This document shows positions 17,677 to 59,334 of a DNA stretch of 64,000 nucleotides, one piece after another. The stretch spans positions 902,143 to 966,142 of the forward strand of contig OZ316891.1 of the NCBI GenBank assembly GCA_973895155.1, given 5' to 3'. Each line of letters starts with the position of its first letter. Position 1 is the stretch's first letter. The stretch is from Marsupella aquatica (lineage: Eukaryota; Plantae; Marchantiophyta). The translations under genes were made by a program, and so were the position numbers. A model generated the notes under the pieces. That model had not been told where the DNA came from, searched no databases, and saw only the letters and a list, made by a program, of their open reading frames with translations.

Positions 17677-17954
17677 TGTTGGAAATAAGGACAAACTGTC
17701 CTTATTGGACTCCCTTATTACTCGCTGTTAATTAGATAGTTGCTAACTGTAATTAGGTAGAGATTAATAGTTGCCGTTAGGAATACCGGTGATCTGCGTT
17801 GCCACTTGTCTTACATTACATTTACTTAGTGGGTAGGCCGTTTCTCCTGGCACGCTTGTGCCCGTTGCCTTCTGGGCCTGCCCCTCTCCGTTCCTCTGTG
17901 TATATTACTTCCCCCATTCGGGAAGACTAATTAAGTTTTACAGAAATTTTCACA
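17677..17954 (+). repeat. Copia-1 5' LTR
   Basis: TGTTGGAAATAAGG...TTTTCACA, followed by the tRNA-iMet PBS. Confidence 0.95.
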
Positions 17955-18006
17955 TGGTATCAGAGCAGAGTAATTCTTAGAGTCCTCGCACAGCAAGGAA
18001 CTCACC

Positions 18007-21000
18007 ATGTCTTCTTCCGATGCTACGAAGATTTCATTCTCTGATAGCGATAAGGTAGTGGGTAATCAGAATTACACCATCTGGGCATTTCACGTCGAAC
18101 AGATCCTCAGAGAGAAGGATCTATGGTACATTGTTGATCCAGCTGCTGTCCAGGCCACGTCTCAGACGTCACCTGGAGGCAGCGGACCACCAAGCACTGG
18201 CGGACCCTCTTCCACTGGCGGAGCTTCATCCACTTCGGGATCAACTGTTGGTGGCACTGGAACTACTCCATCAAGCAGTGGAGGGACCGTTGGCACTAGT
18301 TCTGGCACGACTCCAGGATCTGGCACCACCGGTCCCCTCACTCACGCTGGAGTCACGGCCACTGTTCACCCCGACACACAGAAGCACAAGGAACGGGTAA
18401 TTATAATACTCACCAAAACTGTCACTGCCTCCATCTTTCCCATTGTCAGTAGGATACGCACTGACCCTGCCAAGCTATGCGCCACGCTCAAGAAGAAGTA
18501 CGAATCCTCTGCCATTCAACGCAAGCTAGACCTCAAGACAACTCTCATTGAGCTCAAGCTGTCTGAAGGAGCATCGATTGAAGACTACCTCAAAAGGGTG
18601 GAACATCACGTGATGGAGCTAGCCTCAATCGGAGAAGAAATTCCCGATAAGGAGCTCATTCAGATTGTTTTGAGGAATCTCCCTGATAGTTGGTCGTCGT
18701 TTATATCTGTGTATGGAGTAATGTACTTGAAGGACACACAAGCTACGTTTGCAGATCTCGAGGAGTACCTGCAAGCGGAGGAATTTCATCGCAGAATCCG
18801 CAATGGAGAGCCCAAGGAGCAATCGCTCATTGCAGCAACATATGATCATCGACGAGATGGCGGCAGAGGAGGCCGTGGCCGAGGCCATGGCCGGTTCAAT
18901 CGGTGGGGCCCTCGACGCGTCGACCCTGGCAGACGAGACCCTGGCAGGCCAGCCCCTGACAGGAGAGGGGATGCGTGCAACTACTGCGGGAAGAGAGGAC
19001 ACTGGGAACCAGACTGCTTTGAGAAACTTGCTCACGTTGAGATGAAGTCCATGAGTGGAGCCCAGATGCGGGAGCTCTCACAGAGCATCAAGGACATAAA
19101 GGGTCTTGGTCCTAAGTCCTTCTTTGCTGTCCAGGGCGACATCGGGGATAGTAGCCCTGACAAAGCTGATGGCGGTGGTGAAGATCTAACGGCTCTTACT
19201 GTAGAAGCCATGCTTAGCGAGTTTGAAAAAAGTAGTTCAAACAATCAGACTTGGATTTTGGATAGTGGAGCTTCAGCCCACATTAGTCACGATAAGACTA
19301 GCTTTGCTTCACTTAGCAGCACTCCATCCACCTCAAACGTCCTGACCGCCAATGGCTCTAAAATGCCTATCTCAGGATCCGGATGTATTTCTCTTTCAAA
19401 GAATAAAACCATCTCTGATGTTCTTTACGTGCCGAGTGTTACCAGAAAATTTAATCTGATCTCAGTCGGAAAGCTCACCGACCAGGGACATAATGTCCTA
19501 TTCAATTCCACACATTGCTATGTCTTAGATAAGCATTCTCCATTCATTGTCAGACTCAGAGGTACAAGGGATCCATCCAGTAAGCTGTATAAGCTCCAGG
19601 CCCCGTCTATGTCACCGATCAAGCAAGGCTCGGCTCAACTCAACAAAAATTTTATTCTCCACCCAAAGGTAGCGACTCAGTGCAACCGTGCTGAACCTCG
19701 ACTATCTCAACATGATCTTTGGCACCAGCGTCTAGGCCACTCGAGCTCTCAGCGCATTACGTACATGACTCGCAACAAACTCATTGTTGGGGCTCCTCTA
19801 CTCGCGCTCTCCACGGATGTTTGTGACACCTGCGTACAGGGGAAGCAAACTCGACAACGAATCCCTAAGGCCACCTTCAGAGCAACACGGCCTCTGGAGT
19901 TAGTTCATTCTGATCTTTGCGGGCCTCTCCCTGTCTCATCTATTTCCGGAGCCAGGTATGTTATCACATTTACTGATGACTACTCTCGTTATACCTGGGT
20001 CTACTTTCTGAAGTATAAGAGTCAAGCTCTTGATACATTTAAAGTCTTCAAGCAACGAATTGAGACGTCACTCGGGTGCAAATTATCCTGCCTTCGCAGT
20101 GATAGAGGAGGAGAATACACGTCTGAATTATTTCGTTCTTTTTGCGATCTACATGGCATCACTCGCCAGCTCACTGTAGCTCGAACACCTCATCAAAATG
20201 GAGTGGCCGAGAGAAAAAATAGAACCCTGCTTGAAATGGTCCGTAGTCTATCACTTGGGTCTAATGCCCTTGCCATTCTCTGGGCGGAAATATTACAAAC
20301 GGCCAACTACATCAACAATCGATGCAGTACTAGGGCTCTTAATCTGTCCACTCCGTTTGAATGTCTCACTCTGACCAAACCAGATGTAAGTCATTTCAGA
20401 ATTATTGGTAGCACTGCTCATGTCCATATCCCCAAAGAAATGCGCAACAAGCTGGGATCCAAGTCTATAAAGTGCGTACTCATAGGATATGACGAACAGA
20501 GTAAGGCCTATCGCTGCTTCAATCCTTCCACTCGTCAGATACTTGTCTCAAGAGACGTCATTATTGATGAGGCCACTCCAGGGGGCTTCTCCCGATCAGT
20601 CAGTGAGAATAGAGAGAGTCTGTATGACTTGGTCTCATCTGCCGACATTGGTTCAAGCTTGTCCCATGTGGACACTATTGTCTCTCACACTACTAACGAC
20701 TCTGATTCAACTGCTGCTGCTGATTCTACCACGTCAATACAAGATACCCCTTTAGAGGAGGTCTCTCAGGAACTCGATAACATACCCCTAGAGGTCTCTC
20801 AGGAACCTGCTACGACTCCTTCTGACTCAGAAATAAGCCATCCACCGGCTCATGAGTCTCGCCCGGTTCGCCGTGCACGTCAAAGAAGTCTCCAGCGAAG
20901 TCTTGAGAGAACTCGGCCCCCATCCGGGAGAATCACTTCACTTCCCTACAAATATTCAGATTTCCATATTTACTTGTCCACTGAGCATGCTAACGACTGT

Positions 21001-22665
21001 CTTGCCATGTTAGCTGACTCGGCTAATGACATCCAGCTTAGCGACGCATTGGTTGACCCGCGCTGGGTAGCTGCCATGCAACTAGAACTCCTTGCTCATG
21101 AGAAGAATGGAACCTGGGAGCTAGTTGAGCTTCCCCCGGGCGAGAAAGCACTGTCAGCTAGGTGGGTGCTTCGAGAAAAGATCGACCATGCTGGCAAAAC
21201 CAAGTTCAAGGCACGAGTGGTAGCACGTGGAAATGAGCAAGTTGAAGGCCTAGACTATGAAGAGACGTTCGCCCCGGTAGTCCGATGGTCAACAGTTCGC
21301 ATCATCGTTGCTCTGGCTGCTATGTTCGGATGGCCACTGTTTCACATGGACGTAGTGATGGCATTTCTCAATAGCATGCTTAAAGAAACCATCTACATGA
21401 GACAGCGCGCCCCCGGGGTTTCTCAAACAGGGACAACGCGTGCTAGTGTGCAGATTGAGACGCTCAATTTATGGGCTCAAGCAAAGTCCCAGGGCATGGT
21501 ATGAAGAAGTTGATTCCTTCTTAAGATCAGTCGGCTGTGTGCGAAGTTCGCTAGATCCCAATCTCTACTTTAAGCAAGAGGGAGACAAGACAGCCATCGT
21601 TCTACTCTTTGTAGACGACTTGCTGATCACCGGTAGCGGCTCAAAACTCATTGCCGAACTCAAACATCAACTACAGTCCAAGTATGAGATGAAAGACCTT
21701 GGCACTGCCAAACGCTACTTGGGAGTCGACTTTCACAACTCAGAAAAGGGAATTCTTCTGCACCAGCAACCTTATGCTAATCAACTGGTGCTCGACCTTG
21801 GAATGGAGAACTGTCGCCCAGTCTCTACTCCACTTCCTGAGAGCTTGGAGTTATCTTCTGAAACTAGCACTCCAGATATAGATGTCACGACCTATTGCAG
21901 ACTAGTTGGCAAGCTAATCTATCTTACTCACACCAGACCTGATCTCTCTTTTGCCGTAGGACTAGTAAGCAGGTTTATGAGCCAACCTCAACAAGCACAC
22001 TATGACACAGCTGTGCACATCGTAAGGTACATCAAAGGCACCACCGACTATGGAGTCTTCTATAAAAAAGGAGGGGAGCTGGATCTACAAGGGTACACTG
22101 ACTCCGATTGGGGTAATTCTTGTCCCGACACTCGAAGGTCAACAGGAGGATACATTTACCAGATAGCAGGGGGACCGGTGACCTGGAGTAGTAAGCGTCA
22201 GCCAACAGTATCTCGCTCCACCACTGAAGCTGAATATCGAGCCTTGTCGGACGGAGCCCAAGAAGGAGTCTATCTGAAACGTCTAGTAGAGGAACTACAG
22301 CAGCATGCGATCAGTCCCACAACCTCAAATGTAAAAATGCAGACATAGCACATGATCTGAGGGAGTCATCCATTCCCACTCAACAGGATTTACACATACA
22401 TTGTGATAACATGAGCTCCATCAAGCTTGCGAAGAACGCAGTATTTCATGCGAGGACGAAGCATCTCGAAATACACCATCACTTTATCAGGGAGAGAGTA
22501 CTTGACGGAGAAATCTCTGTTCAACATATCAAGTCTGAAGACCAGGTCGCTGACATACTCACAAAGGTGCTCTCGAAGGTCAAGTTCGACAAAAATCGAG
22601 ATTACTTAGGGATGAAATCCCTGACTCAACTTGAGTCAGCTGGATCCTCGTCCTTACGACGGTAG
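18007..22665 (+). pseudogene. Copia-1 gag-pol with two frameshifts
   Basis: CNYCGKRGHWEPDC zinc knuckle; WILDSGAS protease; HQRLGH..CDTC and HSDLCGP/SDRGGEY/NGVAERKNR integrase; YGLKQSPRAW and LFVDD RT; TDSDW..ADILTK RNase H. Apparent 4-bp insertion (CGCG) at ~21406 and a 1-bp deletion at ~22322. Confidence 0.92.
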
Positions 22666-22726
22666 TCACATCTTTTTACAGCATCTACTTCAGATCATTC
22701 TCTCCTAGACCTAACAAACGAGAATG

Positions 22727-23245
22727 TCAGCGAAATCTACCTACATCGCGATCTATGTACGCCTCCGCTTCCTGCCTAGTCCTAAAGGATTTGAATTTAT
22801 TCCCACGAAATCCATTCACTAGGGGCTCTACCTCATCCCAGGACGTGTATATCCCTGGGCGCCTCCCCCGTGCCACGGCATAGTATCTCCGCGGCATCTC
22901 AACTGCGCCAGCATGTAACTGCACTGATAGCGGCTCAACATCGACATTCACCATTGGTGATCGCTTCAGAAGATCACTTGGTGGCACTTCTGTAAGCTGT
23001 CGACCATTATCTTCTCCATGCTGTTCACTAATCACGCCCCCGATCACACTGTCTCTGGAGCATTGTGCCCTTGGCACATCTTGGATTACTGATTCCGCTG
23101 CCAGGACCAGTTCTGTCTCGGGTCCTGCATTACGGTTGCCCCTTAACGTATCACATAGAAATCGTGCTACTGCTGATATGAACCCCAGCATCGCTAGGAG
23201 TAAACACAACGCTGATTCCCGCAAAGAGGCTTCTTCCTGCGCCAT
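22727..23245 (-). CDS. Antisense accessory ORF of Copia-1: hydrophobic N-terminal helix plus RNase H1 N-terminal (caulimovirus viroplasmin-like) hybrid/dsRNA-binding domain, 172 aa
   Basis: ATG-initiated intact ORF between pol stop and PPT. C-terminus RRYYAVARGRRPGIYTSWDEVEPLVNGFRGNKFKSFRTRQEAEAYI fits the RNase H1 hybrid-binding consensus; N-terminus ALCLLLAMLGFISAVARFL is hydrophobic. Confidence 0.85.
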   Translation of the reverse strand: MAQEEASLRESALCLLLAMLGFISAVARFLCDTLRGNRNAGPETELVLAAESVIQDVPRAQCSRDSVIGGVISEQHGEDNGRQLTEVPPSDLLKRSPMVNVDVEPLSVQLHAGAVEMPRRYYAVARGRRPGIYTSWDEVEPLVNGFRGNKFKSFRTRQEAEAYIDRDVGRFR

Positions 23246-23337
23246 TTCTCGTAAGAAACGTAATAGTGTGCCCCGTGGAGCTACGCTGTCTCTCCCTTGT
23301 ATCTGTCTCTGACCAGCGAAATGCGGTCGAGAGGAGG

Positions 23338-23615
23338 TGTTGGAAATAAGGACAAACTGTCCTTATTGGACTCCCTTATTACTCGCTGTTAATTAGATAG
23401 TTGCTAACTGTAATTAGGTAGAGATTAATAGTTGCCATTAGGAATACCGGTGATCTGCTTTGCCACTTGTCTTACATTACATTTACTTAGTGGGTAGGCC
23501 GTTTCTCCTGGCACGCTTGTGCCCGTTGCCTTCTGGGCCTGCCCCTCTCCGTTCCTCTGTGTATATTACTTCCCCCATTCGGGAAGACTAATTAAGTTTT
23601 ACAGAAACTTCCACA
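23338..23615 (+). repeat. Copia-1 3' LTR
   Basis: TGTTGGAAATAAGG...CTTCCACA, followed by TSD ATAAC. Confidence 0.95.
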
Positions 23616-38754: not shown

Positions 38755-41046
38755 GAAATCTTTGACTGAAAGGATATGTACACCTCGTGAAGTTGCACAG
38801 GCACAATAGATGTTCAGGAAGTGCGATGGCCAATATGTTACAATTGTGGATAAGATGTTGGTCGCATTGTCCTGTTCTGCCGACAATTTCAGTCACAGCT
38901 TTTGCTTTTTGGATTGGAAGAGTTACAGAGTGGATTATTGTATTAATTGTGATTCCGCAATATGCTACAATTGTGTAGAAGGTGGTCCGTGGCATTTTGT
39001 ACTGTTCTGTCGAAAAATTTAGTTTATTAGCGAATTGATAGTTTACAGACTTTACCATCACTGCTTTTGCTCTCTGGATTGAAGGAGTTCTTTCCCAGCA
39101 AATTTAGGATATTTGATTGTCAATGATCCAACTGTCTATTGGGAATATACATATAGTCGTTTTTAAATGGCCCTTCGATTTTGCAAAGAAACTAACCCGA
39201 CTCGAAGCGGCAGAGTCATCTACGAGGTAAAATTAATCCATTGTATAGATGCTAGCCAATTCTTCAGTATGGTGCTGGAAGAAACCCGGCGAGAAGCAGC
39301 ACTTTATCTACGAGGTAAGGCGAAAGTGTTATGCATATGCTGGCCATTTCTTCACTGTGGTACTTGTTTGAAGTCTTTCATCTTAATGCTATGCGTAGTA
39401 GAACATGTCTTACTGCTAGAATTAAGCTGTTGCTCGTGCTTAGCTGACATTGTTCACCCGTGCGAGCTAGCAATGTTCTCGTAGAAGGTCTGGTCTGAAA
39501 GTACCGCGCTAAAAATCCCATGACTAAGCAGTTAGGAACTCCGAGCAAATCGCGGTTGCAGCCAACGTCCGCTTGTACGAAGTGAATACTTTACGGAACA
39601 GAGATTGCCGTAATTGTTCGTTGAATTTGATTTTCACGACGTAGAGAGAGAGCGAAGCATTGGCTACAATGCCAGCAAATTTTGAGGTGATGGGTCTTGA
39701 ATAATTGGCTCGAAGGTTGCTATTGACAACCTGCTCCGTATGCACTTCTCTTGATCATGATGTCCATCGATCGATCATCTGCGAGGTCTAAATATCGGCG
39801 CCCATTTAAGAGATCGATCGTGACTTCGAGGTAATTAAATTTAAGTTTCGGTCAAGACGTTTGGGACTTAGAAGATACCTGTTGTAGGCAGGAGAACAGT
39901 TTCCAGGTCTAGTCACAGGGTTTCGAAATCCTTTTGCATTATCTCGAAGAAACACAACGGGGACTGGTAATCTGCTTTTTGTGCTTGAGATCGAGTCCAA
40001 TTAAGACAATCCAGGCGAGATCCCAGTACTGATTTGAGGCCCGTTTTTGGTTGCAGAGTTTGACCTCGAATTGGGTGACGGTATTGTATATTACCAGAGA
40101 TGACATAGGGGAGGCCTGATCGAGAATTTTCAGTCAGGATAGAAGTGAAGATTTGGACAGGTTGGTATGGGTTGTCGTTTAATGATGGAAACATGCAGGG
40201 GATTAACCGATAAACTTAAAAGTTAACATACCAAATCCCACCCTCTTGGGAGTGTGCTACAACTTTCACTTGAGAGTCTTCCTCTGCATATACATGATTC
40301 TATGTCTGGCAGATACGGATTATTTTCAGCGACGTTGTGCGAGTTCGATGAATAGCAGTGAGAGCAACAAAGCGTTGGAAAGCTGCAGTAGTAGCCAGCT
40401 GATCGATCAGTTGGAGGCCTGGAGCAATCCCCACAACCCTAACTAAACGATAGCAAAATGTCCCATATATGCAACTGTCTACGATTTTATCAGTTCTGTG
40501 GATTGTAACACCAGACACCGCGTACCGCACAGTTACCTCGCAGCTTTGAATGTTCAACAAGTGCATCACCCAGATTGAAGTTGACTCTCTCGCGACCAAA
40601 TTTGATTCATAGACTTTTAGAAATCCACCTTTATTAATAGAACGAACGGATGCATCCACGTGGGAATCCGAAGTTGCTTTTCACATTTCAAGCAAAGACC
40701 AGGCGGCTGGGGGAGGTAATCCAAGAAGTTCAGATCCAGTAAATCATCAAAACGTCTACGTAGAAACCGAAGAAACCATAGACCCACAGTCACTTCTGCT
40801 CTTATTCTACGTCCAGGGACTACGTAACGTACTCTGAGAGTCTACGATGCATATACCGGCTCATAGCTAGTGTCCAACCTTTGATTCCATGGCCGAAATT
40901 CCATTGATCCAGTGGTTTCATCAGAATCCGGCAGTGATTTCAGTGATTTCACAGTGCCGTCTGGAGGCCTCCGACGAAATTCCAACCAATACTGTTCACC
41001 TGACCTGACTCAATGAGAAATTCCACATATGGTTTTCAGGTCGAAC

Positions 41047-44000
41047 CTAAACTGTCTGCCGTAGGACTTGTTTGTAATCTTCAAAAACAGCCACCCGCTC
41101 GAGCAACCTCAGTCGCTTCTGACGCGTGGAGTCATTCTCCTCCATGAGAGTAACCAGATCCTGCTCCATATTGGCTTTTAACAAGCCACTCCACAGATTC
41201 CTAAGAATCGCAGTTTCCAGCGCGTATCGGAGTTCCATCGGAATCCCGTAGGCCATTCGGTCCTGCACCACCTTGCAGTACGCCGCCAATTTCACTTTCA
41301 TGTGGAAGGCTGAGAGATATTCGTTCGACTTATTCGAAGTCTTCCGAAGAACGAAGGGTTCCTCGAACCCTTCAACCTCGACCCCATCATTATTAGCATT
41401 TTCCGAGTGGAGCTGTGCGAGAGAGTATCTAATCTCGTCAACATTGGCGATGTAGTCATCACTCGTTGTGAAAACATTTGATCTTTCTTTGTCGAGGACG
41501 TGCTGAACAAAAATTGCACACTTTCCTTGGCATCGTGCAAGAACGTTCTCTGCCTCCTGCAAATCGAGACGTAACAAAAAATAAGATACGTGAAAGTAAT
41601 AATTAATATGATTTCTATATGATTGTCTTCACCCTAAAATCAGTCTCACACAGGTAGCAATTTGTAAATCGAATGACTCACTGCTTTATAAGCCGCGTTC
41701 AAGTTCGGGAATCCGTTGGTGGAGCTGTCAATGATGTCCAATACAAACTTCCGAGCGTAATGATGTGTCTGGAGCACCAGATCGGTGCACACTTCAGAGA
41801 CCTTGTCAACCACCTCGCTGACAAGTGTCGTCATCAGCGTGGGGGACAAAGTATTTGGTAGCGTCAATCCTCGCAGCTCAGACATCCGCAGCAAGATTTC
41901 CTCCGTTTTGGTCTCAGGCAGAATTTCTTTCATGATGGTTTCATGAAGGTTGTCACTAAACTTTTGGAACATTTCATCTAGCCTTGCAGGGTAGTGCAAG
42001 TCTTCGCGGTCTGCTAAGTTGCGAAAGTTTCTATTCACCATCACATCCTGCAATAGGCTTTTGTTCTGGTTACCGATGTTCGAAAACACATTTGTCGGGT
42101 CTTCGTCGCCTAGCACGCCCAGTGGAAGAGCTTCTAGTTCCCTCTGCCTATCTAGCAACACCTTGTCAACCTGCTCGCGAGTCCCTGGAAATAAACAACA
42201 TCCAGCCAACGAGATCTTCAGCCAGAGTACATATACCTTCGATTCGTGTGTGCTGGGCCAGTTGCAAAAGGGTTACGCTAGGCTCTCGAAAACATAACCT
42301 TTAAACTCTCAGTTTCTCATAACTAAGCGTGTGTCTAGATTTGTTTCCCCATCTACTCTCCATCCACATGCCTCGACGAAGTGCGTGTTCCAATGGCTCA
42401 TACGTTTCATAACTGAGCGCAGACTTCCTTACCCGGTAGGTTCTGGCGAATGATGTTCGCTTGGATTCGAGTCAGGTGTTCTGCCAACGCTGGGACCCCT
42501 ACGAATTTCTTTGCCAGCTTCGAGAGTGCAGGATGTGTGTCAAAGAGTCTTCTCTCTTGCTCACGTGCCACCTCATGAGAACTATCATCGTCTGTTTTGT
42601 TCCTGCAGCGCAAAAACAGCTCGATTCATATACACTTGCATTAATGTGCCGATTGATCATCTCAATTCAATTCCACAGATTCTACGACCCCTCTGCGCCT
42701 CCATAATTTTAGACCCGTCGATACTTTACGCCCCCCCATCATACAGTCTATATCAATTTTATGTTTGATTGCAACCGACGTAATTATATAGAAACATTTT
42801 ACATGTTGGCTGACTTCGGATTATCCATCCCTTTATAAGTACCCTGATAAGTACTTTTCACGAATTTGGATTACCAACAAGTTTATTGTATGGTCAGTCG
42901 ATATGCCCTGTAACTCTACAAACTGAAGGAGAGTGGAATGCTGGCACCCTATTTTCCACCGGGGCACAATCATTGAAAGAGGATAAAGCTAATTCAAAGT
43001 TTTGGCATCGTTCTTTGAACTAATTACTGACCCGAAACAAACATTCGAGCAGAAAACCTTACCGGACACAAATATACCCTATCTGACCAATGTTGACATC
43101 GTCAGCCGTCACTTTCTCGTAAACGTCGTCGGGGGCTCGATCCACTTTCGTCACCACAGTCAACGTTCTCACACCTTTCTTATCCTCTTCTCGGGACATG
43201 TTGATGGATTCGCACGTGGAGAAGTTCACAGTTCCGGATAAGACATTTAGTATTACCGTGTCCTTTTTTCTGAGATAGGTTTGAATCATCGTTTTGATCT
43301 GCTCGTAGATATCAGCTCGCTGGCCGTGGACAGGTACTGTTGTGATGCCTGCATTTTATCATGAGACGTGAACGTTAGTTCAACTTCGCAATACAACTTC
43401 TCTTAGCCATGCAATGCAATTGCCCTAGTCAAATTCTGGTAATGAAACTAGGTTTGAACATTGCGCCATCCAACATTATATTATCAGAAGGAAGCTGAGA
43501 TTTGTGGGTGCATAGACGGAAACAAAACATAGCCTGATGTATGTATCGTAAAACTCTACTCATGAGACATTATCGAACAAATAAACTGAGTGGTGCTGGT
43601 CATCGGCGACAAGAAACCCCTGCAGTTCATGGAGTTCTAGGAATGAAGTTGAAAGCGTATTTTCAGAGAGCCATAATTGTCCACCATCTCGCAGCTTACA
43701 TATAAAGTGAACCAGTAGAATGCATTCAAACTTAAAATGCATGATTCAGATACTACTTTATTGGACCTGGAAGATCAATGATCGTCAGATCTGGCGCGTC
43801 GGGCCTCCGTATGTGCAGCGAAACATTTCCTTCCGTGATGACACCTTTTCCAGCCCCCGCCAGGATACAGGTCGCTGCATCGACCTCCAACTTGATCTCA
43901 TCTTCTCTGATGGCTTTAGTCTGACCATCATACGAAATGGTAGTCTCATCTGAATCACGACATCTCTCCAATCGAACGACAAGGGGAACTCGGGTAGTGA

Positions 44001-44193
44001 TGCCCTGTCCCCGGGGTAAGTTGATGGTAGCAAGCGACTCCAGAACAGAAGACTTGCCACTGGACTGATCCCCGACTATCACTATAGTGGGCAGAGAAAT
44101 GCCTTCGTTGGTCACCTTCAGTTTTCGGAGAAAATTCACGACATCCAGAAGAGGGCGGATGTTTTTGTCGAAGTTTCTGCCGAGGTCAGCCAT
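41047..44193 (-). CDS. Mx-like / DRP4 dynamin-related GTPase, copy Mx3, 5 exons, 631 aa
   Basis: Exons 44193-43767, 43348-43063, 42602-42433, 42184-41682, 41556-41047; sum 1896 nt; GT-AG. G1-G4 present, but DLPGITTVP and LSGTVNFS variants. Confidence 0.9.
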
Positions 44194-46315
44194 TTTCTCA
44201 CCACAACAACGAAGCACCTAGGTTCCGCTCGAATTCCACGAACAATGGATCGAGACTGGTCGGAGCTGCTAGAGATATCAACTACCGACGGTAAAGCTCA
44301 GCTGCTGAAAGAGCGAGAGTTGGAAGAACTAAGACACCAAACCCGTCGAACTTTATCAACAATATACTCGCCGGGCAAGAATGGCAAGCTTACAGAATGT
44401 CGAACAATGCTCGATGCCGTTAAGTTCACAACCCCTGATGTCTACGTTATCGTCTACTCTGTCACAAGCGAAGGATCTCAGGAAACTTGGACTGTAATGC
44501 GGGTTGTGAGCAGCACCAGGAATGACCGGGCTTATATAGGGACGCTCGTCTGGTCGGTTTGATGTTTAGGTTTGTCACCTGTTCTGTAGTCATTCGCACA
44601 TCTAAATATTAGGGTTTATCACATCGGTCATGTGATTATGATGTTTAGGTTTGCCAGATGTTTTGGAGTGACTCACAACCATCTGTAGTGCCTCATCACA
44701 TGTACAATGTGATTGTCATGTCATGGAGTAACCATCACATCTAACTATCATGGTTGGTATGGTAAAAGCTATGTAGTTAGACCTAAGTTGCCCTTTGTGA
44801 TCTGCACAGTCAATCATCATTTATACCTTTATCAAATCACATATATATGTTATCGATGGCAATAAAACGGGAATAAAAAGGAATAAAAACTTTTATCCGT
44901 CTCAATGGGTCACGAATATTTGTCCATGTAATAGTTATGCATTTTTGTAGAAGGTATGATCTTGCTTTTTTGTATAATTCAAATCTTCCTTTATCGGAAA
45001 GGGATATAAGACGGGGTAAATAAGGGAGAGCCTGGTAAGCTAAATTTAGTTTCCAGTTAGTACATAATGAGGGACCACGGTACCCTCTAACAGACCTATT
45101 CACCTATTTGTTTTTATGAAAGGTAGTCCCTCCATCGATCCAATAATTAGATCAACGGTTCAGGTGACAAATCAATGAAGGCCATACAAACTGGAGCAAG
45201 CTCATGGTCACCATTGCTCTATTATGTACTCTTCAACCAGTTTTAAGATTAAAGGTAGAGCTGACTATGAACTTTATATTTATTTTGGAAAAGAACTGAT
45301 CAAGAGGATAGATCAAGAGATGCAGTCATCTCCTCATCCATCGGTCTGAGTTTCAGTCAGACAGCTGTGGAGCAGAGATTGTGTGAGGAGTCTGTTGCAC
45401 TTGCTCTCTTTGGTCATACTTTCTCCGGAACCATCACCGGTGGTTGCATGGAGTCAAACTTTCAATTCCTTCCAGTAGCTCATCAGTTATGCTTTCAATG
45501 GGTTGAAAGGGGCTATTTCAGGAAGTCCCGGCTTCATTCCTCCTCATTGATCATTGTTGCAACTCACTTCCTACGATTCAATATTCTCTCCGCTTGCCTT
45601 GACTCAGCTTGGCAGTTTGAGCATTCACTATTGTGAGTTCCTTTCCCATATCCTCGCCCTGTTTTGCTCGCTGATAATCAAGTAGAAGTCCAGGGCTCTA
45701 TTTTGCTAGATGCTTGTGATTAGTTACGAACACAGCCAAATTATACTCTAATCGAATTGTTTCGTTTTGTCTCCTCAGCTTTCTCACGATCAATTCAGAA
45801 GCAAAATGACTAATTTTACAGACGAACTTCTTCCAGGGATCGTTGAAGATGCGACGTTGGCCCATATTGCTCCGAAGTTGTCATGGACAGATTTGCATGT
45901 GCTGGCATCGCTGAGTCCAACTTGGCAACAAGCAATTCAGAGCGGAAAGGTCTACGATGACAGAATTCGCTCGGAACAAAAGGAAACGTTTGTCATTGTC
46001 AAACACCGTGATGCTACTTCCGATAAGCCCGCAGTGTCTCTGTATTCCATGAGAACGAAAGCTTTCTATCCACTTCCTCCAATTCCCCCCAGTCTTGGTG
46101 AAAACTCTCAATTCTTCCAATTTCACGCATCAAATGGCACTCTATACATCATGGGGGTAGGTTGTCACTGCAAGTGTTCCGAGTGCACTGTTTGCTTGAC
46201 CAAAGCCGAACCAGCCAGTAGGATATATATGTTGGATGTTGCTGGGATGCGGGAACGGTGGGAAGAGTGTGTTGGAAATGAACCACACTCGAACGAAGAT
46301 GGATACAGCCACAAA

Positions 46316-46386
46316 GGGCCTGTAGCTCAGTGGTAGAGCACTATGATGTACACGGGAGGTCCTAGGTTCAATTCCTAGCCGGTCCA
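46316..46386 (+). ncRNA. tRNA-derived Pol III cassette in TRIM 5' LTR (not a functional tRNA)
   Basis: Acceptor stem GGGCCTG/CCGGTCC-A; D arm GCTC/GAGC with A box TAGCTCAGTGG; T arm CTAGG-TTCAATT-CCTAG with B box GGTTCAATTCC. Anticodon stem does not pair. Confidence 0.85.
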
Positions 46387-46510
46387 TGCTGTTGAAAGTT
46401 CCAACATGGTATCAGAGCCAAAGAAAAGGAGTTTCCCTTGTAGCGAGTGCGGCTCAAGGGTGGGTGTTGGAAATGAACCACACTCGAACGAAGATGGATA
46501 CAGCCACAAA

Positions 46511-46581
46511 GGGCCTGTAGCTCAGTGGTAGAGCACTATGATGTACACGGGAGGTCCTAGGTTCAATTCCTAGCCGGTCCA
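46511..46581 (+). ncRNA. tRNA-derived Pol III cassette in TRIM 3' LTR
   Basis: Identical to 46316-46386. Confidence 0.85.
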
Positions 46582-49500
46582 TGCTGTTGAAAGTTCCAAC
46601 AGAGTGCTCCACAGGTGTTCCACTAAATCGTAAGGGCACAATTGATATGAATTGTGGTTCCATAGTAGTGGACGATGAAACTTTCATGAGGAGTGGGTGC
46701 CGATGCTGTTTCCCCACTTCTTGGTTTGCACTTGATCCAGTGGAAGGTCAATGGGAAATGCTAGAATCAGATTCTGAGCAGCTTACTTTGGACAACCTTC
46801 CGCAAAAGTGGTTTTCGGCTGCAGAAAAACGCTATGACATCGTAGCATGCCGCAACCATCTCGATTTTTATTCCCCGGATCCTATTACAAGACTAGCTAC
46901 GCATATGCACTCTGTCTCAAGCACAATTGAACCTGCAGAAGGAAGCATCTGCTACCCAATCCAGGTTGAACCGTTGTTTATCCTTCCGCTGAACAACGAG
47001 CTTTTAGCAATTGCACGTCAGAGCGACGTCCTCACTGACGGTTATTGCATGATTCAAAGCATAGGGTTTGGATCTGCTGGAAAAGAGATTGCGTGGGAGA
47101 TAGTAACGGACTCTAAATTTCTGCTGGATAGGCGCACTACTTTTGCTATGTGCCCCATTCAGCTTTGAGATCTAGTGGAAATACACTTGGAAATCTTGCA
47201 TGCTGTGCCAAAGGGATAGATTTTGTTCAAGGTCTTGTTGTTTATAAATAAAAGAGCCTTGGTGACCTCTTATACGTGCATAATGCATCATGGAATAGCT
47301 TGAAGTGTTTTGAGGATGTAGTTATAGTAGAATTTATCTATGAGTCAGCCGAGCATATAGAAATGGATATACAAATTAACATTTGCTCTTTGATAAAGCT
47401 CCAGCTAATTTTCAATTTATTTACAGTACTGTCAATTTATTTATGCTAAAGTTTGAATGTGCTCCTTTGTCTTCATTGTTTATGGGATGATATGTGTTTC
47501 TTAATATGCATATGCCATGCCAATGACCTCCAATGAATTTCAGGTCATCAAAGCGTACATCAAAGAATGAAATAAAGGGAATTGCATATATATGACCCAA
47601 CTGGTATTGACATCTAAGGGGCCGATCAATCCAAGCGGGGGCCGTATCACCCGCAATATTGAGAAGCCTTATAGCTCAATCTAAGTCACCTCCTTCGATC
47701 TAAGTCAAGAGCTCAAGGTCGTCCATCCATTCTGGACTTGTTGACTCCTTTCTACAACAAGGGAGGTACGCAGGAGATGCTTCAGCCTGCCTGGAACTCC
47801 AGGAGGAGAGCAGTTAATTTGCATACAGGTGTCCTGGGGTCTGCGATTGGTAGCGGCCTCTGTGTGGCAGCTAGGAGATCGAGTACGTGTCTCGTCCGTT
47901 TTAGGGCCACATATACCACTGCGATGCAAGCTTCTCTTCTTCGAAAACGGGACAAGCAAATACCCTTGATCAGGACTTTTGTTCCGTTTGTTTGCAAAGT
48001 CGACGATTAGTTCTGCTGGTCCGCTTGCCATATGTTCTTCCTCGTCCAGAGCTCTTGATATATTGCTCTGCATTCTGCCATTTTCAGCATCTCCAGCAAA
48101 CTCCACACTTTTTCAAACCTCCTATTCTGCCATTTTCAGCATTCTCCAGCAAACTCCACACACTTTCAAACCTCCTCCCGACATCAACTAAGCCAGCGGA
48201 GATCTTGTTATCGAGAATCAGTTGCAGAAGAAGTTCCTGCAGCTTCCTTTCCGTGACCCATCTGAGCTTTTGGTGCCATGACTCCTGTCTTTCCGGATAG
48301 TTACCAGTTTTGACCCAATGAGTTGCATTTCAATAACAGGGTGATAGTCTAACACACACGAGAATGAATTCAGATCGATGTGATTTGACGACCTCCGGCC
48401 GCTTGAAGCTCTACTCTCTCCCTAGTTTGCCGTTCCAAAGGTCCTGATCATTATTTCAACCAAACGGAACAAAAGTGTTGAACCCCACGGATCCACTACA
48501 GCTGAAGAACGAAGGGAAAGTTGCACCACAGCAAGATCTGAGCTCTAAATCAACGGGACTCAAGGCCGTGTACCCCAGCAATTCTGCCCTGGGCTCACCT
48601 GAGGCGATAATCCAACTGAAGACCCTTCCCCTCCGGCTGCTGGTCAGCCCATTCAAGACAGCAAAATAAACGAGAAAACGTACTACAATGAAAGGTGTCT
48701 TGTCTAAAGTCTATTCGGACCCTGTATATTTAGCAGAAACTGCAAACTCTATTTTCAGAGGGCCAAGGTGAATTCTTGCACACCCCGTGTGGCCATTTAT
48801 TTGGTGTGGTGGATGATGTGGTCTCATAAGAACCATAGGGTCTAACACAATTATGAGACTTATAAGCCATTAGGGTCTTTTTAATCAGTGTTTGGAATAT
48901 TCCAATAATTTTCCAACTTTACAGGAGTCGTAAATTTTTCCCAATTTAAAATATCCTTACAGTCATTTTAAGGGATCCAAGGTCTAAAAACATCGCAGGT
49001 GATGTGGAGGCTCTAGATAGTTGTTAGATATTGCTATAGTCTTGTGACTCTTGTGCTAACCACAGTTAGGCTAACTCGGGTTAGGACCTAGCTAAGGTTA
49101 GCGGTAGTGCTGTTGTGCATATAGCCAGGGCTGATGCCAGACCCTGGTGGAACAAAGGCTCATTGTTATGGAGCTAGTTGAGAGATAGGGAGAGCTTGTG
49201 CTGTGGATGCTTGGTATGGCCGGTCGGCCTAGAGTGCAGTAAAGCTCTTGTGTATTCCCGTGGACGTAGCCTCATGTGGAGGTGAACCACGTATCTCTCT
49301 GTGTCGACTATTGTGCGTTGGATGATTCATGGGCTTGTCGTTGCGAATGTCGTCTATGCTCAACAAGTGGTATCAGAGCATGCCTGGGAGGTGACGAGGT
49401 TTTTTCGTGACGCGTTTTTCCAGCGTTCATTGTCGATGGTACATTCGGAGTTTCGTCGCATGAAACTTGAATGTGTGTGACTGTGCGGATAGGTTAGTGA

Positions 49501-50312
49501 AAGGGCTTTCTAACGGTGGTTAGAACTCGCTGATCGGTATCCGTGGTGCGGAGGAATCAAAGTTTGCGTCGTTCAGGTTTTATTCGTGTTTGACAGTTTT
49601 TTCGGGGGAGAGACCAGAGTTTGTGTTTTCAACAGTGTGAGCAGTGCGGTGCGGGAGGCGTCGCATGTTGTAGCTCAAGTTGAAGGTTGAAGCAAGCTGG
49701 TCGTTTTGGTAGCTGATTTGTTACCAAGTTGTTACCAAGTGTGACGTGACGAGTGACGGAGGCGTTCAGGTTTTTTCACAAGCTATGGAGCTTGTTCTCA
49801 TCTGAACCGGGTTTCTCTTCGTGATGTCCGACTCGGTGGAAGAAACGCGAAGTGCTACGGCTCAACGGTTTGATCGCGGCGAAGCGGTCATTTTGAGTCC
49901 GGGATTGGCACTTGACGCGGAGTGAGTGTGACGCACCGGAATTTTTTTTTCTCTGCTGGAGCTGCAGACTATGCTGGTGCAATTCGGCAACATTTCCTAT
50001 TGGCGGCGTTCACTTTACTCGTGAGAAGCAGCGGCGTTCAAGTATTGGACTCCTAGCTTCGTGGGCTACGCGGCGGTGTTGAGTTTTGAGTTTTATGAGA
50101 AGTTTCGAAAAAAGACGTTTTTTCGTGATTGTTTCATATGAGTGACTAAGAGGATACTGGAAGAATTGGCATCGGTGGAGCTTCACGATCGCGACGGTCA
50201 GACGGAGAGTCTGAGGAGGAGCTGCTATCGTTTGAGGAGGAACTTATAACACTGGTACGATCACCGGTGCGGCGTGCAGTGGAGGAAGCTGTGTTACTAC
50301 CAAAGTTGTCGG

Positions 50313-50609
50313 CTCGGGGGTCTCACTATATGGGAACCTCCCCATCGCCTGCGACGTTTTTAGGCCTCGGACCCCCTAAAATGTAAGAAAAAAATTTTAT
50401 TTTTTAACCCCTATAAAGTTGGAATATTCTTGGAATATTCTAAAAATTGGATTAAAAATACCCTAATATTCTTATAAGTCTCAAAATTCAATTTAAAAGA
50501 CCCTATTGTTCTTCTACAAAAATTCTTAAGTCTTCCCTTAGAACCAATAAAATGATCTTATCCTTCGTCGCACGTGATATGCCATTTTTGTGGAAGTGAA
50601 ACCCCCGAG
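50313..50609 (+). mobile_element. MITE family A copy nested in the Copia-2 5' leader
   Basis: TIRs CTCGGGGGTCTCAC / GTGAAACCCCCGAG; TSD GTTGTCGG / GCTGTCGG (7/8); homologous to 32473-32749. Confidence 0.85.
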
Positions 50610-50637
50610 GCTGTCGGTAGTAGGGAAGAAGAGGGAG

Positions 50638-53600
50638 ATGGCTAGATTTGGAGGAGTGAAGTTTGAGGTGGAGAAGTACGATGGTCATACTGATTACTTG
50701 CTGTGGGAGAAGCAAGTGAAGGGTGTTCTACGGGCCATGGGCTTAGCTCATCTACTTTCATCGCGAGAGCAGTATGATGGAGAGGAGGAGATTTCAGTGA
50801 GGCAATGGAGACAGGATTGCTGTCAATGCAGTGATGCTATATCTCAAGCCGCACATCATCAAGCAGCTGGATGATTATGCGGATTGCGCGTCACTGTTCA
50901 AGGCTCTAAGAGAGAAGTACTACCGGGAAGATGCGTCAGACCGGTTGTACAAGAAGTCTCTCTTGATGAGCCTCAGGCTCAAGGAAGGGAGCAAGATGCA
51001 GGATCACCTGGATAAGTTTGACAATCTAGCGGTTGATCTGTCAAACCTGGAAAAAGGAGTTGAAGATGAGGATAAGGCCTTGCTTCTGCTGAGCTTCTTA
51101 CCGCTGTCATATCAGGGCTTGAAACAGGTGCTCTTGTACAGAGATCTGAAGTCCATTTCGTATAATGAGGTGGTAAGCTCTTTACTGTCTGATGATGCTC
51201 AGAAGAAGCTGGGTCAATCACAGACAACATCTTCTTCTGGCACTACGCTCAATGTGAACAGGGGAAGAGCAACGCAGCGCACGAATGGGCAGAACAGGTT
51301 TAGATGTACATCTCGGGGAAGATCTAAATCCAGAGGAAAATTGCAAGAGAGGAAGCCTCTTGCATGTTGGAATTGTGGCAAGCCAGGCCACATGAAAAGG
51401 GATTGTCGAGTAAAGGTCCCTACTGCCTCTGCTAACGCAGCATCGAGCTCGCATGAGATAGATTTACTCGATGATGATGACATATTGTGATGTCAAGGTT
51501 ATGCTCTCAACGTAGTATCAAATCCAAGTAGTGATGACTGGATTCTAGATAGTGCATGTACTTTTCACATTTGCTCTAGGAGAGATTGTTTCAGTTCTTA
51601 CACGGTTTCCAACGGGTCAGTGTTGATGGGAAATGGAATCCCATGTCAAGTTGTTGGACTTGGATCTGTAAGATTTCAGATGTTTGATGGTGTTGTGAGA
51701 ACGTTGAGGAATGTGAGACATATTCCCAGCATGATGAAAAATCTCATTTCACTTGGAGTTTTAGAAGCAAATGGCCATCAGTGGAGATCTGCTAATGGTG
51801 TCCTTCAGGTTTCAACTGGTACTAAAGTTGTATTGAAGGGAAAGAGACATAGCAATCTATACGTTTTGGAGGGCAGTGTAGTTTGATCAAGCCAATGTAA
51901 CCTTATCTCATGAGGAGACGGCCCGGCTGTGGCACTTCCGTTTGGGCCACATGAGTGAAAAAGGTTTGGCTATTCTTCAGAAAAAAGGATTACTTTCTAA
52001 TTTGCAATCTTGTAAGTTGGAATTTTGTGAGCACTGTGTGCTAGGGAAGCAGCACAGGAAACCCTTCGGAGTTGGAACTCACACCAGCAAGGAGGTACTT
52101 GAGTATGTACATAGTGATGTGTGGGGTCCAGCCCCTACTCCCTCATATTCTGGACGGTTATACTATGTCACGTTCATAGACGATTAGTCAAGGTATGTGT
52201 GGATATACTTTCTACACAATAAGTCTGATGTTTTTGCCACTTTTAAGTAGTGGAAAGCCCAAGTTGAGAATCAGACTGGTAATAAGGTGAGATATCTTCG
52301 ATCGGATAACGGCGGTGAATACAATTTCGAGGAATTTGGAACGTATTGTAAGGAGCAGGGGATTACCCGCCATCTCACAACAAGTTATACTCCTCAGCAA
52401 AATGGTGTTTCTGAGAGACTCAACCGAACACTATTGGACCGCTCGAGGAGTATGTTGAGTCAATCATGCTTACCACATGAGTTTTGGGCTGAAGATGTCA
52501 ACACTACAGCTTATTTGGTAAATTTTTCTCCATCTAGTTCTATTGGATTCAAGACGCCATTTGAAATGAGGTACGGGCGTCCAGCAGATTACTCACATCT
52601 GAGGATTTTTGGATGTGATGCTTATGTGCTTACACCTTCCCAGCTTCGATCCAAGCTGGAGTCCAAGTCGAAGAAGTGCATTTTTCTTGGCTATCAGAAA
52701 GGTGTGAAGGGTTATAGGTTATGGGATCCAGTAACCTATAAACTAATTGTCAGTAGAGAATTTAGGGTTTAGGGTTTAGGGTCCTTTAATGAATCCAGAT
52801 CATCAAAGGAGGGGGAGAGTTCTCAGGACTCCCATACTGACAAGGGGAAATCTCCCATCCCGGACCGGGTTGAGGGGGAGATTAGTCATGATGCAGTTCA
52901 TGACAAGAGAGATGGAGAAGCTCCGGGCTTGGAGCTGGTTCCTGTGATGGAACAAGAGGAGCAGATTGTTGCTGGGGTACCTCAAAATCAGCCAGCAATA
53001 GCAGCAGATCAACCTGAGTCATCTACTAGAAGAACTTCCAGTCGTTCTACTAAAGCTCCTACCAGGTATGATCAATGGGCAGACTCATCTAAGCTAGATG
53101 ATATTGACATTGCACCTGATGATGATGACATGGCTTTGATCTTGGAAGAAGGAGAACCTTCTTCGTACAGTGAGGCTTGTGCTTCAAAACAGAAGCATGA
53201 GTGGAATGCAGCAATGCAGAGGGAGTTGCAATCTTTGAGTGACAACAAGACATGGGAGCTGGTGGAGCTTCCAAGAGGTCAGCAAGTGGTGGACAGCAAG
53301 TGGATTTACAAGTTGAAGAATAGTCCTTCAGAGGGTGGAGACAAGATCTACAAGGCAAGGCTTGTTGCCAAGGGATTCACTCAGGAGAAAGGAGTGGACT
53401 ACAATGAGGTCTTTTCACCGGTGGTGAAATATTCCACAATACGGATCTTGTGTCAGCTTGTTGTGTTTTTTGGTCTTGTGATGGATCAGATGGATGTTGT
53501 TACTGTTTTTTTCTATGGCAACTTGGAAGAGTTGATCTTCATGAGATAGCCACTAGGCTTTATGAAGAAGGTCCAAGAGAACTTAGTTTGCAGATTGCTC

Positions 53601-55920: not shown

Positions 55921-56395
55921 CCCAGGTATGCAACTTCCCTTTTTATAAGGCAAGTTTATAGTTCCTTATAATGATTTTATATCCAATTGACCATGTGAAG
56001 TTTCATTTTAACCTACCAAAATCTTGTACCTCTCAACTCAAGCAATCCAAATATGTGACTTTAAAAAAAGATTGAAATTGTTTTGATATGAAAAAATTTG
56101 ATCAAAACCAGATTATATGGCTTTTTTTTAATACAGGGGTCTACAGCCAATAGCCAACTTTTGGGGATTTTTATTAAAATTTTAAAAATCTTTTAATAAA
56201 AATTACAACAAGTTTAGGAATTATGTGTTTTAATTTTATGTGGAAAAATAAGAAAACCAAACCTTTTCTATGACTTAAAACTTTTAAAAGTGAACAACCC
56301 AAGTTTTTTTTAATTTTAATTTTTCTTATAGCCAACTTTTTAGTCCATATAAAAATGTAGACCCCTGCATATTATACAAGAGTTGGATACCCGGA
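55921..56395 (-). mobile_element. MITE family B, copy 2
   Basis: Reverse-complement homolog of 36013-36495; TIRs CCCAGGTATGCAACT / AGTTGGATACCCGGA; degenerate TSD TGATTCAG / TGTTTCAA. Confidence 0.82.
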
Positions 56396-58308: not shown

Positions 58309-59334
58309 TCAAAGGTGAATGGGGCACATAGCAAAATTAGTGCGCCTATCCAGCAGAAATTTAGAGTCCGTTACTATCTCCCACGAAATCTCTTTGCCAG
58401 CAGATCCAAACCCTATGCTTTGAATCATGCAATAACCGTCAGTGAGGACGTCGCTCCGACGTGCAATTGCTAAAAGCTCGTTGTTCAGCGGAAGGATAAA
58501 CAACGGTTCAACCTGGATTGGGTAGCAGATGCTTCCTTCTGCAGGTTCAATTGTGCTTGAGACAGAGTGCATATGACTAGGTAGTCTTGTAATAGGATCC
58601 CGGGAATAAAAATCGAGATAGTTGCGTTGTGCTACGATGTCATAGCGTTTTCCTGCAGCCGAAAACCATTGTTGCGGAAGGTTGTCCAAAGTACGCTGCT
58701 TAGAATCTGATTCTACCATTTCCCATCGACCGTCCACTGGACCAAGTGTAAACCAAGAAGAGGGGAAACAGCATGGGCACCCACTTCTCTTGAAAGTTTC
58801 ATCTTCCACTACTATGGAACCACAATTCATATCATCTGTGCCCTTACGATTTAGTGGAACACCTGTGGAGCACACTTCCCACCCTTCCCGCATCCCAGCA
58901 ACATCCAACATATATATCCTACTGGCTGGTTCGGCTTTGGTCAAGCAATTAGTGCACTCGGAACATGTGCAGTGACAACCTGCTCCCATGATGTATACAG
59001 TGCCATTTGATGCGTGAAATTGGAAGAATTGAGAGTTTCCACCAAGACTGGGGGGAATTGGAGGAAGTGGATAGAAAGCTTTCGTTCTCATGGAATACAG
59101 AGACACTGCGGGCCTATCGGAAGTAGCATCACGGTGTTTGACAAACACGAATGTTTCCTTTTGTTCAGAGAGAATTCTGTCACCGTAGACCTTTCGGCTC
59201 TGAATTGCTTGTTGCCAAGCTCGACTCAGCGATGCCAGCACATGCAAATCTGTCCACGACAACTTCGGAGCAATATGGGCCAACGTCGCATCTTCAACGA
59301 TCCCTGGAAGAAGTTCGTCTGTAGAATTACTCAT
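58309..59334 (-). CDS. F-box/kelch-like protein, intact right copy, intronless CDS, 341 aa
   Basis: N-terminal F-box-like LLPGIVEDATLAHIAPKL.W..L..LASLSRAWQQAIQS..VY..R, typical of plant F-box/kelch proteins; kelch-like beta-strand segments (SLYSMRTKAFYPLPPIP, ASNGTVYIMG, IYMLD....W, FTLGPVDGRW); Cys clusters. Confidence 0.8.
   Translation of the reverse strand: MSNSTDELLPGIVEDATLAHIAPKLSWTDLHVLASLSRAWQQAIQSRKVYGDRILSEQKETFVFVKHRDATSDRPAVSLYSMRTKAFYPLPPIPPSLGGNSQFFQFHASNGTVYIMGAGCHCTCSECTNCLTKAEPASRIYMLDVAGMREGWEVCSTGVPLNRKGTDDMNCGSIVVEDETFKRSGCPCCFPSSWFTLGPVDGRWEMVESDSKQRTLDNLPQQWFSAAGKRYDIVAQRNYLDFYSRDPITRLPSHMHSVSSTIEPAEGSICYPIQVEPLFILPLNNELLAIARRSDVLTDGYCMIQSIGFGSAGKEISWEIVTDSKFLLDRRTNFAMCPIHL

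What the first reader, a model, noticed from the sequence alone, without database searches (positions are those of the whole stretch)
46270..46601. 332-bp TRIM whose LTRs are built around a tRNA-derived Pol III promoter; very recent gene-disrupting insertion
Seen: two identical 137-bp LTRs, an iMet PBS, a PPT, only 58 bp of internal sequence and a 5-bp TSD GAGTG. Each LTR holds a 71-nt tRNA-like unit with intact A and B boxes and paired acceptor, D and T stems but a scrambled anticodon arm, preceded by CAA. There is no T4 run (Pol III terminator) anywhere in the element, so Pol III starting in LTR1 could read through PBS, PPT and LTR2. The paralogous F-box gene shows the empty site. Established: Cassandra TRIMs carry 5S rRNA-derived Pol III promoters in their LTRs, and tRNA-bearing TRIMs have been described as Helenus. 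Inference: a recently active SINE/LTR hybrid, so the class is probably known but this family and host may not be.
Basis: partly seen in the sequence, partly recalled or inferred. Interest (0 to 1): 0.78.

Follow-up and report, generated by a model that had tools for sequence, protein, structure and literature searches.

The report
Liverwort Helenus mini-retrotransposon with tRNA-like ends
A tiny gene-less jumping element, repeated many times in the genome of what is likely a leafy liverwort, has landed inside a gene and carries a tRNA look-alike in each end that likely serves as its promoter; the kind was described in 2024 (Helenus), but only once from a plant.

Summary
The anatomy is real: two identical 137-bp LTRs, a 58-bp interior with PBS and short PPT, a 5-bp TSD, a 71-nt tRNA-like unit in each LTR, and a paralog showing the empty site. 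Public contigs show a dispersed family with many unrelated flanks. A box, B box and PBS have no common variant, while U3 and the anticodon arm vary. The CAA motif is not conserved and the missing T4 run is unremarkable. It meets every Helenus criterion I could test (Kojima 2024); Pol III transcription is untested. The host is likely a leafy liverwort. The only published plant Helenus is from Selaginella, and by eye its tRNA-like unit matches ours at 48 of 55 positions outside the anticodon arm, with two compensated pairs. That suggests an old land-plant lineage. One lead I did not find in print: both plant families, and 40 of 59 fungal families read by eye, have a self-complementary word in the anticodon loop whose letters covary, a possible RNA dimer signal; animal families mostly lack it (7 of 50). 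This scan has noted Helenus-type elements before in other genomes. Verdict: new member of a known kind.

The parts
46265..46269 (+). 5' target-site duplication GAGTG
   Evidence: single copy of the site in the paralog
46270..46406 (+). 5' LTR, 137 bp, TG...CA, 8-bp terminal inverted repeat
46270..46315 (+). Inferred U3: 46 bp upstream of the tRNA-like unit; most variable between subfamilies; first 10 bp identical to the LTR start of the Copia element at 17677
46312..46314 (+). CAA at -4 to -2; present here, not conserved across the family
46316..46386 (+). tRNA-like unit 1 (71 nt; G3-U70 pair, A73, no encoded CCA tail)
46323..46333 (+). A box
   Evidence: no variant at 12% or more
46341..46356 (+). 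Degenerate 16-nt anticodon arm; stem positions vary at CpG sites
46347..46352 (+). Self-complementary hexamer TGTACA in the anticodon loop (candidate dimer contact, untested)
   Evidence: comparison by eye
46365..46375 (+). B box
   Evidence: no variant at 12% or more
46387..46406 (+). Inferred U5, 20 bp, no T run
46407..46418 (+). Primer-binding site, iMet type (identity recalled); same 12-mer follows the 5' LTR of both Copia elements in the window
46407..46464 (+). 58-bp non-coding interior
46456..46464 (+). Short polypurine tract (8 of 9 purines)
46465..46601 (+). 3' LTR, identical to the 5' LTR; tRNA-like unit 2 at 46511-46581
46602..46606 (+). 3' target-site duplication GAGTG
45806..47168 (+). 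Interrupted single-exon F-box/kelch-like gene; the insertion gives a TAG at 46334, 176 aa instead of 341
58309..59334 (-). Uninterrupted paralog (88.6% aa identity) in an inverted segmental duplication; shows the empty site
17677..23615 (+). Copia element (278-bp LTRs, 98.6% alike, 5-bp TSD, pol in pieces): same PBS, same first 10 bp, similar LTR end; its family is a candidate helper

Best explanation
[quoted passage not shown] Inferred cycle: TFIIIC binds the A and B boxes in the 5' LTR, Pol III starts just before 46316 and, lacking a T run, reads through PBS, PPT and the 3' LTR into the flank (first T4 here at 46812, about 500 nt). Host initiator tRNA primes at the PBS, the tRNA-like unit plus U5 serves as the repeat for strand transfer, the PPT primes the second strand, and a Copia integrase inserts the DNA with a 5-bp duplication. 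Shown: anatomy, dispersal, conservation pattern, gene interruption. Inferred: polymerase, helper, host group, age.
For: Anatomy. Dispersal: contigs leave the LTR at its exact ends into unrelated flanks, 18 at 46270 and 23 at 46406 in run X1, 14 and 31 in X4; a full-length copy with 41 differing letters lies in a 2.5-kb X1 contig. Conservation: positions with a variant at 12% or more in any of X1, X4, X5, X12 number 1 of 50 in acceptor, D/A-box and T/B-box parts against 22 of 87 in U3, anticodon arm, variable loop and U5 (Fisher p 2e-4; 0 against 18 without CpG sites), and 0 of 12 in the PBS. Organism E holds the element, with fixed U3 differences. Copia link: 5-bp TSD, same PBS 12-mer as both Copia elements in the window, same first 10 bp as one; Kojima ties 5-bp-TSD fungal Helenus to Copia. 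Host: best named ferritin matches are Calypogeia fissa (68%, 391-401 bits) above Marchantia and Riccia (306-318 bits). Likeness to Selaginella Helenus-1_SMo: 48 of 55 positions outside the anticodon arm, same last 8 LTR letters, near-identical PBS, 5-bp TSD, 325 against 332 bp (by eye).
Against: With only rows carried by 5 or more contigs the contrast is 1 of 50 against 9 of 87, p 0.09. Contig ends hide differences and contigs drop rare variants. CAA is not conserved and I saw no TATA-like stretch in U3. No interior similarity to either Copia beyond the PBS, and Copia LTRs often start alike, so the helper is not identified. TSDs of other copies were not checked. The host assignment rests on best hits, not a tree. 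Kojima states that Pol III transcription of Helenus is not validated.
Confidence: 0.8

Rival explanations
1. The tRNA-like unit is also kept as an RNA structure: its self-complementary anticodon loop would let two element RNAs, or the two units of one RNA, pair loop to loop for packaging or strand transfer. This adds to the best explanation and does not replace it.
For: Our loop holds TGTACA; the Selaginella loop holds a palindrome in the same register with all six letters different (by eye). In X1 and X4 the three listed hexamer positions vary in at most 3% of depth while neighbouring stem positions vary in 4-58%. In the Kojima file 40 of 59 fungal LTRs have a 4-letter palindrome at loop positions 32-35 (20 CTAG, 17 CATG, 2 GTAC, 1 CCGG) and 51 of 59 within one position; window background is 6% and 17% (by eye). 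Adjacent letters cannot pair within one loop, so covariation points to pairing between loops. Ours and the Selaginella unit differ by two compensated stem pairs. Palindromes are needed for Ty1 RNA dimers (PMC6844567, abstract).
Against: Counts are by eye, chosen after seeing the pattern, on related families; CTAG can be inherited from a tRNA with an AGN anticodon. Animal families: 7 of 50 at that position, 0 of 14 in the fish group. The plant palindromes sit two positions further 3' than the fungal ones. One divergent record in X12 (depth 421) has no palindrome, while one in X5 has a different one (read from equal depths). The arm does not fold on its own, the duplex is only -4.8 kcal/mol, and four of six letters are predicted paired. 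The same Ty1 abstract could not confirm an initial kissing-loop step.
Confidence: 0.27
2. The tRNA-like unit is a passenger, the relic of a tRNA-derived SINE that landed in an ordinary TRIM; the element is transcribed by Pol II from U3 or from host promoters.
For: CAA not conserved, no TATA-like stretch, no terminator; strict conservation test not significant; this copy lies in sense orientation in a gene.
Against: U3 is only 46 bp and is the most variable part; both boxes are unchanged across organisms A, B, C, E and nearly unchanged in Selaginella.
Confidence: 0.12
3. The liverwort and Selaginella families are not one old plant lineage: they arose separately from the same tRNA type, or came sideways from fungi.
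For: The agaricomycete Helenus-1_AmAr unit matches the Selaginella unit at 53 of 55 positions plus a 2-nt D-loop insertion, closer than ours does (by eye). U3 and interior show no clear likeness between the two plant families. Kojima argues for multiple origins.
Against: The two plant families share the shorter D loop, G3-U70, the last 8 LTR letters, PBS type, short U5 and overall size.
Confidence: 0.35
4. The unit is a working or chargeable tRNA (an alanine mimic) spread by the element.
For: G3-U70 and A73 in ours and in the Selaginella unit; G3-U70 is the major alanine determinant (PMC6451123, start of abstract).
Against: 16-nt anticodon arm, acceptor mismatch, no default ARAGORN call; no terminator; fungal families read do not show the pair as a rule; 3' processing would cut the retrotransposon RNA before the PBS; descent from a tRNA-Ala explains the pair without function.
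Confidence: 0.06

Closest known systems
Helenus (TRIMp3), above all Helenus-1_SMo of Selaginella moellendorffii; Kojima 2024, PMC10886601 (main text parts 1-4 of 6 read; supplement parts 2, 4, 5, 8 of 11 and two searches)
   Same: TRIM under 1 kb; tRNA-like unit with A and B boxes in each LTR; PBS and PPT; 5-bp TSD; 332 against 325 bp; 48 of 55 positions alike outside the anticodon arm (by eye).
   Different: Likely liverwort host (the paper lists one plant species); LTR 137 against 120 bp, interior 58 against 85 bp, no clear likeness in U3 or interior; no T run in U5, where SMo has T4; different loop palindrome.
Fungal Helenus, such as Helenus-1_AmAr (same paper)
   Same: 5-bp TSD, Copia-type priming, closely similar tRNA-like unit, palindrome in the anticodon loop.
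   Different: Longer LTR, 9-nt D loop, A3-U70, T runs after the unit; most rust families prime from a tRNA anticodon loop.
Cassandra (known here through Kojima's text; the original paper was not held)
   Same: Plant TRIM with a Pol III promoter from a small RNA gene in the LTR.
   Different: 5S rRNA-derived, 565-860 bp, transcription shown experimentally.
tRNA-derived SINEs (recalled)
   Same: Internal A/B-box promoter from a tRNA.
   Different: No LTRs, PBS or PPT; moved by LINE machinery with variable TSD and a tail.

Membership tests
Helenus | TRIM under 1000 bp with two LTRs and no coding capacity | tested here: met
   332 bp, two 137-bp LTRs, 58-bp interior
Helenus | tRNA-derived sequence inside the LTR | tested here: met
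   RF00005, 46.1 bits in both LTRs
Helenus | A box TRGCY...YGG and B box GGTTC conserved | tested here: met
   present; no variant at 12% or more in four runs; strict test p 0.09
Helenus | PBS and PPT between the LTRs | tested here: met
   12-nt PBS shared with two Copia elements; PPT 8 of 9 purines
Helenus | 5-bp TSD (plant and fungal families) | tested here: met
   GAGTG on both sides, empty site in paralog; one copy only
Helenus | Dispersed repeat family | tested here: met
   14-31 contigs with unrelated flanks at each LTR end in X1 and X4
Helenus | Unit unlikely to be a working tRNA | tested here: inconclusive
   short anticodon arm, no default ARAGORN call; no isotype models available
TRIMp3 | Transcription by RNA polymerase III from the LTR | not testable with these tools
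   needs 5' end mapping or occupancy data; unvalidated for all Helenus
Helenus-1_SMo family | About 75% identity over 75% of length (Kojima's clustering rule) | tested here: inconclusive
   by eye only: high in the tRNA-like unit, no clear likeness in U3 and interior; likely a separate family
Cassandra / Ajax | 5S rRNA-derived sequence in the LTR | tested here: not met
   no 5S match up to E 5 in Rfam
tRNA-derived SINE | No LTRs, PBS or PPT; LINE-like tail | tested here: not met
   LTR anatomy

The most novel reading that the evidence does not exclude
Plant Helenus is one lineage older than the split of bryophytes and vascular plants, and its tRNA-like unit does two jobs: promoter as DNA, and as RNA a tRNA-shaped scaffold whose anticodon loop has been turned into a self-complementary dimer signal, kept by paired changes in plants and fungi. 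A 332-bp parasite would then get transcription and packaging contact from one captured tRNA.
Probability: 0.2. Interest if true: 0.75.

Novelty: new member of a known kind. Interest (0 to 1): 0.45.

Why it matters
Kojima lists one plant species with Helenus and states that no Helenus has been shown to use Pol III. A young, dispersed family in a likely liverwort doubles the known plant range and, if it is one lineage with the Selaginella family, would be older than the roughly 250 million years given for Cassandra. Its small size and identical LTRs make the promoter claim easy to test. The covarying loop palindrome offers a testable answer to an open point in that paper: how these elements engage a helper with which they share almost no sequence. 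Such copies also score above the Rfam tRNA cut-off and can inflate tRNA gene counts.

Tried and rejected
No whole genome is held, so no direct copy count, TSD survey or tRNA donor search. Metagenome scan for PBS plus B box plus A box: 1 hit, a bacterial tRNA gene with no LTR, rejected. Sequencing runs: no RNA holder listed. X5 (organism C) is shallow (depth 5-14) and matches the flank exactly, so it is not counted as a separate host. Insertion polymorphism: contigs skipping 337 bp occur in X1, X3 and X4; the X4 joint fits the exact GAGTG empty site, X1 and X3 fit the paralog type; no contig joining the left flank to the LTR was laid in X1 or X4, but contigs show presence only and paralogs collapse, so this is suggestive at most. 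Summed depth over single-contig depth gives about 100-170 at the LTR start; the tool says this is no copy number. Absence of T4 as evidence: rejected. Folding z-scores 0.0-0.9: no support for extra stability. Interior against the two Copia elements: nothing beyond the PBS; TGTACA absent from the Copia at 17677 and not in the leader of the other. Bacterial promoter scan: not applicable, nothing found. Sequence look-up in earlier findings gave three unrelated prokaryotic or phage tRNA notes. Literature searches: Helenus + retrotransposon, 6 papers; TRIM + liverwort + tRNA-derived + LTR, 0; TRIMp3, only Kojima relevant; liverwort + TRIM, 2 reviews, listing only; self-complementary anticodon loop in non-autonomous LTR elements, nothing relevant besides Kojima; Jungermanniales genome + LTR + tRNA, 0. 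Kojima's main text has 0 hits for palindrome, dimer, kissing, self-complement, bryophyte. Repbase and most subscription journals could not be searched.
Full report
Observation. The element is as described. The LTRs at 46270-46406 and 46465-46601 are identical over 137 bp, end in an 8-bp inverted repeat, enclose 58 bp and are flanked by GAGTG. Each holds a 71-nt match to the Rfam tRNA model at 46.1 bits against a cut-off of 29. ARAGORN finds nothing at default and a flagged tRNA-Thr at a lowered threshold. The 12-nt PBS also follows the 5' LTR of two Copia elements in the window; that it matches initiator tRNA-Met is recalled. The PPT has 8 purines in 9. The element interrupts a single-exon gene, giving a stop at 46334 (176 aa of 341); a paralog at 59334-58309, 88.6% identical, runs through the site. 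The gene has no Pfam match; its only relatives are three Calypogeia fissa proteins at 24-36%, two with kelch domains. The two paralogs differ in 39 non-synonymous and 8 synonymous codons, so the pair shows no sign of constraint and the interruption may cost little.

Host. No genome is held. The best named matches of the window's ferritin are Calypogeia fissa (68%, 391-401 bits), then Marchantia and Riccia (306-318 bits), with most mosses and vascular plants lower (one 490-aa Salix entry scores 378 bits at 53%). A leafy liverwort is likely; no tree was built.

Family. Four runs hold most of the region. Laid on the region, their contigs pile up on the element at summed depths tens of times those of the flanks and leave it at the exact LTR ends into unrelated sequence: 18 and 23 such ends in X1, 14 and 31 in X4. 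X12 (organism E) holds the element with fixed differences in U3. Positions with a variant at 12% or more in any of X1, X4, X5, X12: U3 8 of 46, acceptor 5' strand 0 of 7, D arm with A box 0 of 18, anticodon arm 10 of 16, variable loop 2 of 5, T arm with B box 0 of 17, acceptor 3' strand 1 of 8, U5 2 of 20, PBS 0 of 12. Core against rest is 1 of 50 against 22 of 87 (p 2e-4); limited to rows carried by 5 or more contigs it is 1 against 9 (p 0.09). The CAA triplet, which helps Pol III in plants at -10 to -3 (PMC13578239, passages), is among the variable sites. The lack of T4 is met in 533 of 1277 window stretches of 195 bp.

Age. Identical LTRs bound divergence at 2.2%, about 0.8-3.6 million years under rates I assumed. 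57 of 255 laid pieces in X1 and 63 of 377 in X4 are 99% or more alike, so a young subfamily sits beside older copies. A contig with the exact empty target occurs in X4; it may be this locus or another paralog.

Mechanism. Most likely the A and B boxes of the 5' LTR recruit Pol III, the transcript reads through the 3' LTR to the first T run of the flank, initiator tRNA primes at the PBS, and Copia proteins copy and insert it. The 5-bp TSD, the shared PBS and the first 10 bp shared with the Copia LTR at 17677 point to Copia; no interior sequence is shared, so the helper is not identified. All these steps are inferred.

Comparison. Kojima 2024 (PMC10886601, main text parts 1-4 of 6) defines Helenus as TRIMs with tRNA-derived LTR sequence, 311-1263 bp, and lists one plant, Selaginella. 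Every feature I could test is met. By eye against the supplement, our unit matches Helenus-1_SMo at 48 of 55 positions outside the anticodon arm. Of seven differences, four form two compensated pairs (acceptor 5, T stem 3), one keeps a pair, one breaks acceptor pair 6, one is in the T loop. Both have G3-U70 and A73 and the same last 8 LTR letters. U3 and interior show no clear likeness. A fungal family, Helenus-1_AmAr, is closer still to SMo in the unit (53 of 55 plus a 2-nt insertion), so common descent in plants, a shared donor tRNA and transfer from fungi all remain open. These comparisons were not run by machine. Two later papers that name Helenus add no plant family in the passages read.

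The loop palindrome. Our anticodon loop contains TGTACA; SMo has a palindrome in the same register with all six letters changed. Reading supplement parts 2, 4, 5 and 8 of 11 (about 110 of roughly 230 entries), a 4-letter palindrome lies at loop positions 32-35 in 40 of 59 fungal LTRs (20 CTAG, 17 CATG, 2 GTAC, 1 CCGG), within one position in 51 of 59, and is absent in 8; background is 6% and 17%. Close oyster families switch CTAG to CCGG, two Coprinopsis families CTAG to CATG. Against: animals 7 of 50 (bivalves 6 of 12, fish group 0 of 14, other vertebrates and ctenophore 0 of 5, wasps 1 of 19, though 9 of 19 wasp LTRs have a longer palindrome further 3'); families are related; CTAG can be inherited; the arm is not predicted to fold and the duplex is weak; of two divergent records, one keeps a palindrome and one does not. 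Ty1 needs palindromes to dimerize, but an initial kissing step was not confirmed (PMC6844567, abstract). Kojima's text does not mention it, nor did my searches. I give it about 0.27.

Earlier notes of this scan report Helenus-type elements in at least 8 other genomes, among them diatoms and early-diverging fungi, none found under liverwort or palindrome terms. I did not check them.

Verdict. A real, young, dispersed Helenus family; new member of a known kind in a plant group where I found no report. Interest 0.45, carried by the range extension and the testable loop idea.

Noticed in passing
window 22727-23362 (-): Inside the Copia element at 17677-23615, between pol and the 3' LTR, an antisense 211-aa frame ends in a ribonuclease H1 N-terminal domain (PF01693, E 3e-20).
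   Followed up: no
window 17677-23615 and 49021-55277 (+): Two Copia elements with LTRs about 98% alike and pol in pieces; both have the iMet-type PBS.
   Followed up: partly
window 41272-48193 and 56574-64000: Inverted segmental duplication, about 90% identical, carrying a dynamin-like gene and the kelch-like gene.
   Followed up: partly
window 12957-16415, 23805-26763, 41018-44343, 60866-64000: Cluster of four dynamin-family genes, 72-85% alike in exons.
   Followed up: no
window 45806-47168 and 58309-59334: The kelch-like paralogs differ in 39 non-synonymous and 8 synonymous codons: relaxed or positive selection; no kelch motif is detectable by Pfam.
   Followed up: partly
window 9072-9956 (-) and 430-1536 (-): Ferritin and NAC-domain genes that each read as one uninterrupted frame; plant ferritins usually have introns (recalled).
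   Followed up: no
window 4774-5460; 32473-33003, 48828-49013, 50313-50609; 36014-36498, 55918-56394; 10419-10805: Long inverted repeat (84%), two small dispersed repeats and a tandem array of about 75 bp.
   Followed up: no
runs X12 and X5, laid on 46316-46392: Records that match only the tRNA-like unit, without gaps, with 11-12 differences (one at depth 421): possibly further related families.
   Followed up: partly
PMC10886601 supplement, parts 2, 4, 5, 8: Many Helenus LTRs, the Selaginella one included, have a T run right after the tRNA-like unit, upstream of the PBS, where Pol III would be expected to stop; this family has none. How those families make a full-length RNA is unexplained.
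   Followed up: no
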